The position numbers were made by a program. A DNA stretch of 64,000 nt from Escherichia coli. GTDB lineage: Bacteria > Pseudomonadota > Gammaproteobacteria > Enterobacterales > Enterobacteriaceae. Below, piece by piece: positions 9,001-12,000 of this stretch (the stretch's first letter is position 1; each line of letters begins with the position of its first letter). The DNA is taken from NCBI RefSeq assembly GCF_030013595.1, contig NZ_CP122768.1; one strand, written 5' to 3'.

Positions 9001-12000
9001 ATTGAAAAGAAAGAGTTGCGTACAGAGGATGATTTATTATCCCAAATCGCAATGCTGGAAAAAGAAAACGCAGAGTTAAGGGCAAGGATAGAGCAGTTAG
9101 AGCAAGAGCGCCCGATACACTTATATAAATACTGGGATAAAGACCCATTAGCTAAGGCTATTGAGATTAGAAACAGAGAGTGGGCCAATTACGATCCAGA
9201 AAATGATTTTGCCACCAGGGGAAATCAAGAAGCGATAACCAGGGAGCTTAAGCAGTGGGGGGCAAGTAATGCACTTGCAACGCTCATAGAGAGGACTGCC
9301 TGCCCTATTAACCGAGACAACAGCCAAAAGAACGCAAAGCCGGATTAACGCACCATACCGCATACCCTGAGGGTGATTTACTGTTACCCTGAGGGTATTT
9401 TTTTATCTTCCCCGTCAATTTTACCATCACCCTTAGGGTAGATTTCCTCCCGATTACCATCACCCTTAGGGTTAATTTCCTTCCGGTAACCATTAGGCCT
9501 GAGGGTATGAAAATATTCGTTATTTCTGTGCCAGGATTACCTCGTCAAATTGAGTAGACGTTATGAGGTAAATATATGTCAAATACGCTTATTCGTTTAA
9601 CAGAAGTTCAGCGTAGAACTGGATATAGCAAGGCATGGATTTATCGCCTTATGGGGCAAGGTAAATTTCCTGCATCAGTTAAAATTGGCTCGCGAGCTAT
9701 TGCTTTCGTTGAGAGTGAAATTGACGAGTGGATTAATCAGCGTATTGCGGAATCACGCGGAACAGCTACCTGATTAAATGGCTACGGGGCTATTGCCCCC
9801 AGCTATCCACCAGCAAATAAAAGTAACTTAATTCGATAGCAGGAGTTTTTATGAAATTTCCAAAAACGCCCGTACAGGGGCGGGGCTTCGTTCGGCCTGA
9901 AAACCAGAATCTGCAAAATTTCGGCGAAATTATCCCGGTTATTTCCGGCGTTATTGGCGGGAGTGAAACCACTATTGTTAGCGCCAGAGCGTTACATAAG
10001 GCGTTAGGTGTAGGGCGCGTTTTCCGTTCGTGGATCAAGGGGCGCATTGAAGAATACGGGTTCACGGAAGGCGTGGATTATGAGGTTGTTGAATATTTGA
10101 GCCGACCCGATCCGGTGAGCGCAAAATCTCGCCAGCAAACCGCTCTTGAGTACATCATCACAGTGAACATGGCGAAAGAACTGGCGATGGTCGAGCGCAC
10201 CGAACAGGGCCGCGCCGTTCGTCAGTACTTCATCAAATGCGAGGAGGAGCTACACAAGGTTGCGCCTGTTCGTTCCGCAGCGTTACGCCGGGAACTGAAA
10301 GCCCGTATCACCGTTGCCAGTTACTTTAAGCCGATGTGCGCCGCGCTGGAGGCGTACCGGGCTGAACTGGGTAAAAACACGTTCCAGCACCACTACACCA
10401 CGGAAGCCAATATGCTGGCGCGTATCGTGCTGGGTGGCATGACTGCAAAACAGTGGGCGCAGGCGAACGGCATCACAGGCGAACCACGCGACCACATGAG
10501 CACGTTGCAGCTTGAGCACCTTTCTTACCTTGAGCAGAGCAATATCACGCTGATTGAGTTAGGCCAGGACTACCACCAGCGGAAAGCTGAATTAATTCGT
10601 CTTTCGCAGCGTTGGTTAGCCCGTCGCATGGAGGAAAACAGCCATGTGTAACGCTCTGACCGTTACAAAAAGAGAAAGCGCCCCGTTGCCGGAGCGCCTT
10701 TGTGAACGAATAGCCTACTGCGCCATATTGCTTACTGTCTACGAGGCAGATTATAGCGTTGTGGTCGCACAGAGTGAAGGCGCTGATCACCGTTACTACA
10801 GCACGCCAGAAATGCAGAATATTTTGCTGCAAAATGCCGTTGGTCACGCCGTCCGGAAAGCAAAAAATTTTGCTGGTGGCGCGACTGATGCGATTTTGTC
10901 AGGTCGCCAGGTGCTGATCAATCTGATGTCTGATTTCGTTCTGGATAAAACAAAGGCGACCGCAGAGAGCCGCCAGTGGAAAAGCTACATACTTGAACGC
11001 ATCACCAACAATGCCACATTTGCGGCTGGTGGGCAATGTGATCAGTCAGATTTGGTTCGTTCCAAGGTTTGCAACGAGAGCTTTTTCCTGTGCTCTTTAA
11101 GGAATTTCTCAAGAGCAAACGAACAAGGTGCGAATCTTTCTGATTCATGTTCATGCGCTATATTTTTGCGTCGTTTCTTACGAGTTGGTGATGGTGTTTT
11201 GGTTGATTCTGTGTCGCTCATGGTGCTGTCCTGTAAAGCAATGCGCCTGCGTTCCTCAAACTATGGCGCTGATAGTGGCTATTCCTGCTCTTTGACCTTG
11301 CGTCGCTGGAGTTCTTCACGCGCGACGGTGACGAGTTGCCCGATCTCCTCGGCTGCTTTGACTCCGATTTTTTCCACCTGCGCCAGTGCATCGAGCGAAG
11401 AAACCAGGGGATTTTCTCCTCTTCCTTCTGCCTGGCGCCGGGCGATCTCCCCGCGCATGGCGGTTACTATGAATCCGGCGTTGCTTTCGCCGTCCAGTTT
11501 TACGGATTCCATGCCTTCAATAACATCATGCGGGATCCGAGCTGTCAGTGATTGTGATTTTGCGTTTTTTGAACCTGTAGCCATCTGTAATCCTCTCAAT
11601 GAAAGTGTAAGACAATATACACATAAAAAGTCTTACATAAAAGCATTGACATGTAAGCCACCCACAAATAAAGTTACTTACACCTTGTTAATGCAAGGTG
11701 CAGAAACGACGAAACCCGGCAGTGCGCGAACACTAACCGGGCTTCTAACCACCAACGATAGAGAGCTTATCGAGGTAGCTATGTTAAATCATACCACACA
11801 CCCGCAAGGGCGGGACTCGCACAACCTGAATAAATACATCTGGCGTTTTATCGCCCTGAGTACGGCACAACCGCGCGTAATTCACATCGAGGCCACCAGC
11901 GAACAGGAAGCGCGTCAGCAATCTCCTGATGGCTGCGTGATGGTATTCGCTGCCCGTATTCGCCAGGAGGTGCACCATGCATAACCTGTCAATTTCTGAC

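What the first reader, a model, noticed from the sequence alone, without database searches (positions are those of the whole stretch)
9363..9507. Cluster of ACCCT-N-AGGGT dyads upstream of alpA
Five near-palindromic dyads, including two identical TACCCTGAGGGT and two CACCCTTAGGGT copies embedded in a 19-bp direct repeat, occur within 145 bp between the cargo gene and alpA. The arrangement looks like multiple operator or arm-type sites for a dimeric DNA-binding protein (AlpA, integrase arm binding, or a helper-phage factor) and could be the island's induction switch.
Basis: seen in the sequence. Interest (0 to 1): 0.4.

Follow-up and report, generated by a model that had tools for sequence, protein, structure and literature searches.

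The report
Operator array for satellite's hidden regulator
The repeated ACCCT-N-AGGGT dyads in front of alpA are real, conserved and helically phased, and they most likely are binding sites for the uncharacterised protein made by the neighbouring "cargo" gene, so this phage satellite probably carries an undescribed regulator and operator cassette on its master switch.

Summary
Four perfect ACCCTNAGGGT dyads (9364, 9386, 9429, 9462) and a degenerate composite palindrome (9489-9507) lie between the "cargo" gene and alpA. No other copy occurs in the 64 kb window.

The element is a 14.1-kb Gram-negative PICI satellite at tRNA-Gly. Across about 200 related loci the dyads do not follow AlpA, the integrase or AntA. 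They follow the C-terminal module of the upstream protein, a coiled coil plus an orphan helical domain ending in ...IExVACPIxR:
- Searches starting from AlpA, from the motif and from the protein all recover the same pairing.
- Three islands with near-identical alpA and leader carry three different upstream genes and three different motifs, diverging 38 nt before the ATG.
- Of 31 invariant intergenic columns, 29 fall in the dyads.
- Dyad spacings are whole helical turns.
- The last site sits on a candidate -10.

Best reading: an operator array for the upstream protein, controlling a cassette-borne alpA promoter. Confidence in the binder is about 0.6. The sign is an inference, with repression or insulation slightly favoured.

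Nothing has been tested by binding. The domain's fold matches no solved structure.

The parts
6970..7043 (+). tRNA-Gly(CCC), the integration target; the attL core TTCCCTTCGCCCGCTCCAA lies at 7026-7044
   Evidence: ARAGORN, Rfam tRNA, and a direct repeat with 21083-21101
7208..8422 (+). Tyrosine integrase of the island
   Evidence: Pfam Arm-DNA-bind_3, Phage_int_M and Phage_integrase. The RefSeq annotation of the same gene in strain cq9 gives the start used here.
8467..8534 (+). int-alpA RNA motif (Rfam RF02996), which here forms the leader of the slot gene and not of alpA
   Evidence: 45.5 bits against a gathering score of 35.8. The position is the same, about 15 nt before the slot-gene start, in ten of the 13 related loci that carry the motif.
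8545..9348 (+). It is the proposed binder of the dyads.
   Evidence: ORF. No Pfam, PHROG, NCBIfam or PADLOC family. The C-terminal family has 73 representatives in 1.84 billion proteins. AF2 model with pLDDT 89.7. Co-occurrence with the dyads.
9364..9374 (.). Dyad 1, ACCCTGAGGGT
   Evidence: invariant columns
9386..9396 (.). Dyad 2, ACCCTGAGGGT, followed by T7; a weak terminator-like hairpin that is not conserved in relatives
9429..9439 (.). Dyad 3, ACCCTTAGGGT, inside the first 33-bp repeat unit (9421-9453)
9462..9472 (.). Dyad 4, ACCCTTAGGGT, inside the second 33-bp repeat unit (9454-9486). Its centre is 109 nt before the alpA ATG, a position kept within 2 nt (-107 to -109) in eight loci from six genera-level sources.
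9489..9507 (.). Promoter-proximal composite palindrome ACCATTAGGCCTGAGGGTA, made of two overlapping degenerate dyads offset by 7 bp. It is a perfect CCATTAGGCCTAATGG in L027 and L094.
9506..9511 (+). Candidate -10 hexamer TATGAA (TATGAT in L020 and L094, with TG upstream in L027 and L094). It is inferred and not mapped. No -35 match.
   Evidence: Conserved GGTATGA(A/T) block that travels with the cassette and not with the leader. The consensus scan found no full sigma-70 promoter.
9537..9571 (+). Hairpin TTACCTCGT...ATGAGGTAA that pairs the alpA Shine-Dalgarno sequence (GAGG, 9565-9568). It is the first part of the constant 'receiver' shared by islands with different cassettes.
9576..9773 (+). 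alpA (65 aa), the master activator of Gram-negative PICIs
   Evidence: Pfam Phage_AlpA 2.4e-19; literature
21083..21101 (.). attR copy of the 19-bp core; the island spans about 7026-21101 (14.1 kb)

Best explanation
The dyads are an operator array for the product of the gene immediately upstream, the 'slot' gene between int and alpA.

**The protein.** It has a coiled coil that would make it a parallel dimer. Behind the coil is a small all-helical C-terminal domain, with conserved AIxIRNxEW, TRGNQ and IExVACPIxR motifs. This domain is proposed to read the half-site (A)CCCT.

**The array.** Four full dyads and a promoter-proximal composite site lie on one face of the helix. They run from just after the slot gene's stop codon to a candidate -10 (TATGAA). 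Protein bound along this stretch would govern transcription entering alpA, the self-activating master switch of the satellite.

**The cassette.** Slot gene, operators and promoter form one exchangeable cassette. It is plugged in front of a constant receiver made of the SD-sequestering hairpin and alpA.

**What is shown:**
- the dyads are real and conserved;
- they are helically phased;
- they are linked to this protein domain and to no other island gene;
- the cassette boundary lies 38 nt before the ATG.

**What is inferred:**
- that the domain binds DNA;
- the promoter position;
- the sign of regulation.

I favour negative control at about 60:40. On that reading the protein occludes the promoter and blocks read-through from int and the slot gene, holding alpA off until a signal, perhaps a helper-phage protein sensed by the N-terminal domain, releases it. 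The alternative is activation from upstream sites.
For: 1. **Chance excluded.** Four perfect dyads within 110 bp and none elsewhere in 64 kb.
2. **Phylogenetic footprint.** In an alignment of E. coli, Pantoea, Kluyvera, Raoultella and Cedecea intergenic regions, 29 of the 31 invariant columns in the first 130 nt fall in the four dyads, while the central base varies freely.
3. **AlpA-first sample of 78 loci.** At least two dyads occur in 4 of 4 intact coiled-coil CTD loci and in 0 of 69 loci without the domain.
4. **Motif-first scan of 2.9 million viral contigs.** Of 52 hits, 34 are the same arrangement of CTD gene, dyads and alpA.
5. **Protein-first scan.** All 60 loci have (A)CCCT-type repeats directly after the stop codon, with subfamily-specific variants: ACCCTNAGGGT, ACCCTNATAGT, ACCGTGAGGGT, AGGGTGATAGCAA/TTGCTATCACCCT and CCCTATAT (also 50-53, 57-61).
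6. **Double dissociation from AlpA.** L018, L020 and L023 have almost the same alpA and leader but three slot classes and three motifs, diverging exactly at -38. L089, L090 and L135 keep the dyads with very different AlpA proteins or none.
7. **Natural domain swap.** The N-terminal domain of L010 recurs in L021, L034 and L037 with another C-terminal domain and another motif.
8. **Distant subfamily.** Class 3 slot proteins (L004, L012, L023, L053) match the CTD profile. Their sites use the same TACCC half-site in another geometry, GGTGGGTA-N14-TACCCACC, abutting a TATATT -10.
9. **Phasing.** 21 of 23 spacings lie within 0.2 turn of an integer at 10.7 bp per turn.
10. **Dimer-compatible model.** The AF2 model is confident (pLDDT 89.7), with a 29-residue helix followed by a four-helix domain.
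11. **Literature.** PalpA is the auto-activated, helper-induced switch, and no repressor or operator has been defined for Gram-negative PICIs.
Against: - No binding data exist.
- Gene and dyads are always adjacent. Linkage alone explains part of the co-occurrence. Only the deep conservation of the sites and the half-site variants argue for interaction.
- The promoter is not mapped. The consensus scan found no sigma-70 promoter here, and there is no -35 match.
- In L135 the dyads follow the gene but face a convergent gene, with no alpA to regulate. This fits a cis-site or insulator role better than promoter control.
- The best-studied island, EcCICFT073, appears to have no gene between int and alpA (alpA followed by 'ORF3'), yet it is still helper-induced. 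The cassette is therefore not the universal induction mechanism.
Confidence: 0.6

Rival explanations
1. The binder is the same but the purpose differs. On this reading the dyads are a cis site belonging to a cargo or defence gene. They could be a protein roadblock or insulator that stops the cassette's own transcription running into neighbouring genes, or an anchoring site for the protein. They would not be a regulatory input to the alpA promoter.
For: - The first dyad starts 6-40 nt after the stop codon in every locus.
- Subfamily A has no convincing intrinsic terminator between the co-directional slot gene and alpA.
- In L135 the dyads lie between convergent genes with no alpA.
- From memory, and not checked here, variable accessory or defence genes sit at this position in PICIs. 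L083 has an AbiEii gene next door.
Against: - The array reaches a conserved -10-like block that is part of the cassette.
- The proximal dyad keeps a fixed distance from the alpA ATG, -107 to -109, across very different leaders.
- PADLOC finds no defence family, apart from one weak JetC (MukB-like) hit to the L010 homolog at E = 5.4e-4.
- An insulator of alpA is still a negative regulator of the switch, so this rival overlaps the best explanation.
Confidence: 0.15
2. The dyads are AlpA's own sites, through which it auto-activates its promoter or acts as an excisionase-type architectural protein.
For: AlpA activates PalpA in EcCICFT073 and EcCIMP1. AlpA is a MerR-like winged-helix protein, and one site lies in the promoter spacer, where MerR-type activators bind.
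Against: - The AlpA helix-turn-helix EVQ(R/K)RTGYSKAW(I/L)YRL is nearly the same in dozens of loci that lack the dyads and carry other motifs.
- The trio L018, L020 and L023 has near-identical AlpA but only L020 has the dyads.
- L089 and L090 have the dyads with unrelated AlpA helix-turn-helix sequences.
- L135 has the dyads and no AlpA nearby.
Confidence: 0.05
3. The dyads are sites for a helper-phage or host transcription factor. This would be analogous to P2 Ogr acting on the P4 late promoter upstream of vis, and it would be the route by which the helper induces alpA.
For: An unidentified helper factor induces PalpA in related PICIs. One 127-kb phage-like contig (L146) carries 21 copies of TACCCTCAGGGTA beside promoter-like sequences, so some phages do use this palindrome.
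Against: - A host or helper factor should not track the island's own upstream gene, yet the dyads do so across Enterobacterales, Pasteurellaceae-like and higher-GC hosts.
- E. coli islands with other slot genes lack the dyads.
- No phage record encodes the domain.
- L146 matches no known phage.
- No Ogr/Delta-type TGT-N12-ACA site lies in 9349-9575.
Confidence: 0.08
4. The dyads are integrase arm-type sites or excision-complex sites.
For: The integrase has an arm-binding domain. The sites are repeated and phased.
Against: - They lie 2.3 kb from the attL core, and equally far from the junction in the excised circle.
- Integrase identity (56-66%) is no higher in dyad-bearing loci than in the others.
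- In the L086-L092 loci the gene called upstream within the flanks read is TerL rather than an integrase, yet the cassette is present.
Confidence: 0.02
5. The dyads have no protein-binding function: they are either weak intrinsic terminators of the upstream gene or a chance or slippage repeat.
For: The scan flags dyads 1 and 2 as terminator-like, and dyad 2 has a T7 tail. The 33-bp unit varies in copy number, as slippage products do.
Against: - The stems are only 5 bp with 3-nt loops.
- The T-run is absent in Pantoea, Kluyvera and Raoultella, although the dyads are conserved there.
- Conservation is confined to the dyad bases, with a free central base.
- The phasing is not a property of terminators.
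Confidence: 0.03

Closest known systems
SaPI/PICI master repressor Stl (Rpr) and its operators in Gram-positive cocci
   Same: Both are satellite-encoded regulator genes next to int. In both, multiple sites lie in front of the operon that starts excision and replication. In both, domains recombine between islands. Here a variable non-DNA-binding part could sense a helper protein.
   Different: - Stl is divergently transcribed and uses an N-terminal helix-turn-helix. Here the gene is co-directional with its target, and the proposed DNA-binding part is a C-terminal orphan fold behind a coiled coil.
- The target is an activator gene (alpA) with its own positive feedback.
- Repression and helper-mediated release are not shown here.
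Satellite P4 late promoter PLL upstream of vis (the alpA homologue), activated by P2 Ogr / P4 Delta at a TGT-N12-ACA dyad near -55 and repressed by Vis (from established P4 literature, recalled, not re-read here)
   Same: Both have a dyad upstream of the promoter that drives the AlpA-family gene of a satellite. Both use a satellite-encoded factor (Delta) as well as helper input. Here the proximal full dyad would lie at about -51 from the inferred start.
   Different: No TGT-N12-ACA site is present. There are four to six phased sites instead of one. The protein is not a zinc-finger Ogr/Delta type. One site overlaps the spacer and the -10.
Lambdoid immunity modules (cI/cro with OR/OL), exchanged as repressor-plus-operator cassettes
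   Same: Regulator, cognate operators and promoter are inherited and swapped as one unit. This gives classes with different specificities in front of conserved downstream genes. Both have several adjacent dyads that suggest cooperative binding.
   Different: The dyads are 11 bp (5-N1-5) rather than 17 bp. There is no divergent promoter pair and no Cro-like antagonist is evident. The protein family is unrelated.
EcCICFT073-type Gram-negative PICI alpA promoter (Fillol-Salom 2018; EcCIMP1, 2025)
   Same: The island type and gene order are the same: int, alpA, Bro/AntA zone, primase. alpA is the master switch.
   Different: Those studies define no operator and no repressor. EcCICFT073 seems to lack a gene between int and alpA. 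The cassette described here is an extra layer found in a subset of islands, 142 of 5426 complete E. coli genomes for this allele.

Membership tests
Gram-negative phage-inducible chromosomal island (PICI) | Integrase at one end next to a specific att site, with flanking direct repeats | tested here: met
   int 7208-8422 lies beside tRNA-Gly. The 19-bp repeat occurs at 7026-7044 and 21083-21101.
Gram-negative phage-inducible chromosomal island (PICI) | alpA downstream of int and co-oriented with it, followed by a Bro/AntA zone and a primase-replicase | tested here: met
   Pfam Phage_AlpA, AntA, and D5_N/DUF5906/Pox_D5. The order is the same in annotated relatives.
Gram-negative phage-inducible chromosomal island (PICI) | Size of about 10-15 kb, with no complete set of phage structural and lysis genes | tested here: inconclusive
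   The size is 14.1 kb. The late region was viewed only through the annotation of a relative (ProQ/FinO, PerC, DUF2213) and was not analysed gene by gene.
Gram-negative phage-inducible chromosomal island (PICI) | Induction, packaging and transfer by a helper phage | not testable with these tools
   This is an experimental property.
Operator array of a transcription regulator | Repeated dyad-symmetric sites in excess of chance | tested here: met
   4 observed against 0.66 expected, all within 110 bp.
Operator array of a transcription regulator | Sites conserved while the flanking sequence diverges | tested here: met
   29 of 31 invariant columns fall in the dyads across five genera.
Operator array of a transcription regulator | Covariation of site sequence with a candidate binder | tested here: met
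   The sites track the CTD family and its subfamilies, and not AlpA, Int or AntA.
Operator array of a transcription regulator | Overlap with, or fixed distance to, a mapped promoter | tested here: inconclusive
   There is a conserved -10-like TATGA(A/T) at 9506-9511 and a fixed dyad position of -107 to -109 from the ATG. The scan found no consensus promoter, and no TSS data exist.
Operator array of a transcription regulator | Direct binding by the protein | not testable with these tools
   Needs EMSA, footprinting or ChIP.
AlpA / Xis-type binding sites | Site sequence follows the AlpA recognition helix | tested here: not met
   The same AlpA occurs with three different motifs. Different AlpA proteins occur with the same dyads.
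Integrase arm-type sites | Located within a few hundred bp of the att core and covarying with the integrase | tested here: not met
   The dyads lie 2.3 kb from the core and show no covariation with Int.
Rho-independent terminator | Stable GC-rich stem followed by a U-run, conserved in relatives | tested here: not met
   The stems are 5 bp. Only dyad 2 has a T-run, and relatives lack it.
P4 Ogr/Delta-responsive late promoter | TGT-N12-ACA dyad centred near -55 | tested here: not met
   None of the 14 window matches lies in 9349-9575.
Stl-type satellite master repressor | Regulator gene beside int, with its operators in front of the induction operon | tested here: met
   The gene order is int, slot gene, dyads, alpA. 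Orientation differs from Stl: the slot gene is co-directional with its target.
Stl-type satellite master repressor | A recognised DNA-binding domain | tested here: not met
   No family or fold match. The domain is an orphan.
Stl-type satellite master repressor | Represses the island and is inactivated by a helper-phage protein | not testable with these tools
   This is an experimental property.

The most novel reading that the evidence does not exclude
The genes in the int-alpA slot, so far annotated as hypothetical cargo, would be the missing helper-sensing master regulators of Gram-negative PICIs, functional counterparts of SaPI Stl. They would be built on an orphan DNA-binding fold that reads (A)CCCT half-sites.

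Each regulator would come as an exchangeable cassette of sensor domain, DNA-binding domain, operators and promoter. The cassette is plugged in front of a constant receiver, the SD-sequestering hairpin plus alpA. Swapping cassettes would then re-programme which helper phage or signal induces the island.
Probability: 0.3. Interest if true: 0.85.

Novelty: new variant of a known kind. Interest (0 to 1): 0.62.

Why it matters
How Gram-negative PICIs are kept silent, and how a helper phage switches on alpA, is an open question. The founding paper states that no repressor is evident and that the inducer is unknown. Later work repeats this.

This analysis supplies a concrete, testable candidate for a subset of these islands:
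- a defined protein;
- defined 11-bp sites;
- a defined cassette boundary.

It also flags several related items:
- an uncharacterised domain family, only 73 clusters in 1.84 billion proteins, as a probable new DNA-binding module;
- other slot classes that have their own motifs;
- a conserved SD-sequestering hairpin on alpA.

If the reading is confirmed, it would allow prediction and engineering of satellite induction specificity. That is relevant to PICI-based 'drones' and diagnostics. It would also lead to re-annotation of a common 'hypothetical cargo' position.

Tried and rejected
**Family searches.** Pfam, PHROGs, NCBIfam and PADLOC on the slot protein and three relatives gave only coiled-coil noise. 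Pfam on ten slot proteins of other classes gave only DUF6387, in two of them.

**Sequence search of PDB.** A profile search returned coiled-coil hits only.

**Fold searches with the AF2 model.**
- Foldseek against PDB: best E 3.7.
- Foldseek against BFVD: best E 1.1.
- None is informative.
- afdb50 was unavailable.

**Phage searches.** tblastn of the domain against 50,697 phage records found no match. I tried to identify the dyad-rich phage-like contig L146 as a possible helper, but it matched nothing.

**RNA.** An Rfam scan of the dyad region gave nothing meaningful (RAGATH-25, E 0.22).

**Readings checked and rejected.** The terminator, Ogr/Delta site, AlpA-site and integrase arm-site readings were each checked and rejected.

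**Word-index protein search.** It found only 7 relatives of the domain. The exhaustive profile search was needed to see the family.

**Literature.** Searches found no description of these dyads, of a Gram-negative PICI repressor, or of the slot proteins.

**N-terminal similarity.** The similarity between the window protein's N-terminus and the separate 106-aa ORF of L020 is only marginal (E 0.001 pairwise), so I do not rely on it.
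Full report
**Observation.**
TACCCTGAGGGT occurs at 9363 and 9385, CACCCTTAGGGT at 9428 and 9461, and an imperfect AGGCCTGAGGGTA at 9495-9507.
- The repeat finder shows that the exact 19-bp repeat is the core of a 33-bp tandem unit, 9421-9453 and 9454-9486, 88% identical.
- ACCCTNAGGGT with up to one mismatch occurs four times in the 64-kb window, all here. Shuffles give 0.66 on average, and none of 100 reaches four.

**Context.**
- The region lies in a 14.1-kb island inserted in tRNA-Gly(CCC). The island is bounded by a 19-bp direct repeat at 7026-7044 and 21083-21101.
- Gene order is integrase, a 267-aa protein with no family, alpA (PF05930), AntA, a DUF4222 protein and a D5-type primase. 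Relatives are annotated the same way and continue with ProQ/FinO, PerC and DUF2213 genes.
- This is the organisation of Gram-negative phage-inducible chromosomal islands.
- In those islands alpA is the master activator. It activates its own promoter and is switched on by an unidentified helper-phage function. The existence of a repressor is described as unclear.
- I found no paper that describes these dyads, an operator in PalpA, or a function for the gene between int and alpA.

**First clue.**
- Near-identical E. coli islands carry one, two or three copies of the 33-bp unit.
- A related island at tRNA-Thr (L003) has a different pair of perfect dyads in the same place: ACCGCAATTGCGGT twice, 22 bp apart. 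Its upstream protein is unrelated, and its AlpA differs only in the first 34 residues.
- The sites therefore belong to a swappable module. The question was which protein they follow.

**AlpA-first sample.**
- I retrieved 79 loci with AlpA relatives, one genome per species.
- The AlpA helix-turn-helix (EVQ(R/K)RTGYSKAW(I/L)YRL) is nearly invariant, yet the upstream motifs differ widely.
- ACCCTNAGGGT dyads appear only where the upstream protein ends in a particular module: a coiled coil followed by ...DDPLxLAIxIRNxEWxxYD...TRGNQxAI...GFSxxQAxxIExVACPIKR.
- This holds in Pantoea (L007), Kluyvera (L020) and Raoultella (L027). It also holds in Cedecea (L010), where the sites are degenerate.
- Integrase and AntA do not covary with the dyads.
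- At least two dyads (up to 1 mismatch) occur in 4 of 4 intact loci of this type and in 0 of 69 loci lacking the domain.

**Cleanest case.**
- L018, L020 and L023 have alpA genes and leaders that are almost identical from 38 nt before the ATG onward.
- Upstream of that point they share nothing. Each has a different slot gene and a different motif.
- AlpA cannot be what specifies the dyads.

**Reciprocal searches.**
- *Motif-first.* A scan of IMG/VR for two dyads 8-38 bp apart gave 52 loci. Thirty have the domain-encoding gene immediately upstream and alpA downstream. Four more are the same arrangement cut by the locus edge. The remaining 18 are unrelated repeats in contigs of 30-70% GC.
- *Protein-first.* An exhaustive profile search found only 73 cluster representatives among 1.84 billion proteins. 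The domain is always C-terminal, behind N-termini of many lengths.
- Their genomic places and a protein-first scan of IMG/VR with 60 loci show the gene directly upstream of an AlpA-like gene, with (A)CCCT-type repeats starting within a few tens of bases of its stop codon.
- The site varies with the subfamily:
  - ACCCTNAGGGT with TRGNQ-type domains;
  - ACCCTNAGGGT mixed with ACCCTNATAGT with (S/T)IPSQ-type domains;
  - ACCGTGAGGGT and ACCCTCACGGT in L166 and L168;
  - AGGGTGATAGCAA...TTGCTATCACCCT in a Pasteurellaceae-like subfamily;
  - CCCTATAT repeats in another subfamily.
- L089 and L090 keep ACCC-N3-GGGT dyads although their AlpA proteins are very different.
- L135, a prophage-like region, has the gene and three or four dyads but no alpA downstream.
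- The N-terminal domain of the L010 protein recurs in L021, L034 and L037, joined to another C-terminal domain and followed by another motif.
- The profile also detects a third class of slot proteins (L004, L012, L023, L053). Their sites use the same TACCC half-site in a different arrangement, GGTGGGTA-N14-TACCCACC, abutting a TATATT -10.
- Together these results tie the (A)CCCT half-site to this domain. They make the adjacent protein the best candidate binder.

**Anatomy of the array.**
- In an alignment of five genera, 29 of the 31 invariant columns in the first 130 nt are dyad bases. The central base varies (G, C, T, A) and the spacers are unalignable.
- Spacings between dyad centres are 20-23, 29-34, 43-44, 56 or 65 bp. 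Of 23 spacings, 21 lie within 0.2 turn of an integer at 10.7 bp per turn. The sites therefore lie on one face of the helix.
- Gain or loss of the 33-bp unit preserves this phasing.
- The proximal full dyad is centred 107-109 nt before the ATG in eight loci from six genera-level sources, including L090, whose leader is unrelated.
- Several proximal sites carry a third half-site 7 bp upstream (ACCCT-NN-ACCCT-N-AGGGT). The last element is two overlapping degenerate dyads, also offset by 7 bp.
- That last element ends in a conserved GGTATGA(A/T) block. TATGAA at 9506-9511 (TATGAT in L020 and L094, preceded by TG in L027 and L094) is the best -10 candidate.
- This block travels with the cassette and not with the leader.
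- There is no -35 match, and the simple promoter scan found nothing. The promoter is therefore an inference.

**The protein.**
- AlphaFold2 with a 45-sequence alignment gives a confident model, pLDDT 89.7. It has one 29-residue helix, the coiled coil, and then four short helices.
- Neither sequence profiles nor fold comparison link it to any known family. No phage record encodes it.
- The conserved R-N of AIxIRNxEW and the TRGNQ segment are the kind of residues that read bases. TRGNQ changes where the half-site changes. This is suggestive only.
- In Kluyvera the slot holds two ORFs, of 106 and 152 aa. E. coli has one 267-aa ORF.

**Mechanism.**
- What is shown: a conserved, phased array linked to one protein domain, and a cassette boundary at -38.
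- What is inferred: the coiled-coil dimer binds each 5-N1-5 dyad and coats the 150 bp from its own stop codon to the -10 of a cassette-borne alpA promoter.
- I favour negative control, at about 60:40, for four reasons:
  - one site lies on the spacer and the -10;
  - class 3 sites bracket the -35 to -10 region;
  - the gene is co-directional with alpA with no good terminator between them;
  - a self-activating switch needs a tight off state.
- Activation from the upstream sites, as Ogr/Delta do at the P4 promoter upstream of vis, is the main alternative with the same binder.
- L135 and the constant position right after the stop codon keep open a pure cis-site or insulator role.
- EcCICFT073 appears to lack a slot gene. 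This cassette is therefore an added layer in some islands and not the general induction mechanism. This allele occurs in 142 of 5426 complete E. coli genomes.

**Rivals.** AlpA sites, integrase arm sites, helper or host factor sites, and terminators were each tested against the comparative data and are disfavoured.

**Comparison with known systems.**
- It works most like an immunity-type regulator and operator cassette (lambdoid cI/OR) and like the SaPI Stl system in its role.
- It resembles P4 PLL in having a dyad-controlled promoter for the AlpA-family gene.
- It is not a member of any of these families. The defining DNA-binding domains and site consensus are absent or different.

**Verdict.**
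- The finding is real, and more interesting than a generic repeat.
- The operator and switch idea is supported.
- The named binders are not. The 'cargo' gene is probably the regulator.
- Everything about binding and sign still needs experiment.

Noticed in passing
window 9537-9571: A hairpin (TTACCTCGT...ATGAGGTAA) pairs the alpA Shine-Dalgarno sequence. Equivalent hairpins with quite different stems occur in most related loci: CTCCCGT/ACGGGAG, CCTGTAG/CTACAGG, CCCTGTT/AACAGGG and TCCCCAT/ATGGGGA.

Mean SD pairing probability is 0.70, against 0.52 with shuffled upstream sequence (44 distinct leaders, p = 6e-7). The homology shared between islands with different cassettes starts exactly at its 5' base.

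This suggests translational gating of alpA, for example against read-through transcripts.
   Followed up: partly
window 8467-8534 (+): The Rfam int-alpA RNA motif (RF02996, function unknown) lies between int and the slot gene, not next to alpA. It was found in 13 related loci and ends about 15 nt before the slot-gene start in ten of them, whatever the slot-gene class; in L007, L020 and L027, where the slot is split, it lies ~350-410 nt before the CTD ORF. It therefore looks like the leader of whichever gene follows int.
   Followed up: partly
window 9421-9486; L001 8521-8620; L002 6083-6115; L134: Copy number of the 33-bp dyad-bearing unit varies from 1 to 3 among otherwise near-identical E. 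coli islands, always preserving about three helical turns.
   Followed up: partly
L003-L037, 300 bp upstream of alpA: Other classes of int-alpA slot genes each come with their own repeated motif:
- CTTCCA direct repeats about 21 bp apart (L013, L015, L018, L021, L028 and others);
- GGTGGGTA-N14-TACCCACC (L004, L012, L023);
- GTAATATTAC dyads (L031, L062, L077);
- ACCGCAATTGCGGT twice (L003);
- CCCAATTTGGG (L034, L037).

None of these proteins has a known family except DUF6387 in two of them.
   Followed up: partly
L020 2956-3752 (also L007, L027): In Kluyvera, Pantoea and Raoultella the slot holds two ORFs: about 106 aa, and then 152 aa with the coiled coil and domain. In E. coli a single 267-aa ORF covers both. 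The N-terminal similarity is only marginal.
   Followed up: partly
L135 5081-7025: A prophage-like region of a higher-GC host has the domain-bearing gene (258 aa) between two XRE-type regulator genes. TACCCTCAGGGTA dyads follow directly, with no alpA and a convergent downstream gene. The gene-plus-dyad unit therefore exists outside PICIs.
   Followed up: partly
L146 (IMG/VR contig of 126,890 bp), 14-kb stretch: There are 21 copies of (T)ACCCTCAGGGT(A) in 14 kb. Several lie just after promoter-like TTGTCA...TAAAAT sequences, in a phage-like contig with no match among 50,697 phage records and no copy of the domain in the stretch read.
   Followed up: partly
L035 3730-4000 and L173 versus L172: Photorhabdus islands carry a truncated slot gene, with the domain only and no coiled coil. 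They also have a deletion that looks like recombination between the first and last TTACTATCAGGGTA sites, leaving one half-site on the -10.
   Followed up: no
window 6900-26000; L008, L013, L018, L020, L027, L031: Six of the 18 related islands scanned have P4-type immunity RNAs (Rfam isrK and C4) downstream of alpA. The island in the window gives no such match at gathering score.
   Followed up: no
L004-L036, loop of the alpA leader hairpin; L003 5856-5893; L042: The octamer ACCGCAAT sits in the loop of the common leader hairpin (..CTCGTAAACCGCAATAGACGTTACGAG..). The same half-site forms the paired dyads ACCGCAATTGCGGT of L003, and TACCGCAATCGGTA occurs in L042. Whether this is a second protein's site, possibly AlpA's own, is unexplained.
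   Followed up: no
window 7026-7044 and 21083-21101: The island's att repeat is TTCCCTTCGCCCGCTCCAA. The island is 14.1 kb and sits at the glyU tRNA next to actS (ygeR)/xdhA.
   Followed up: yes
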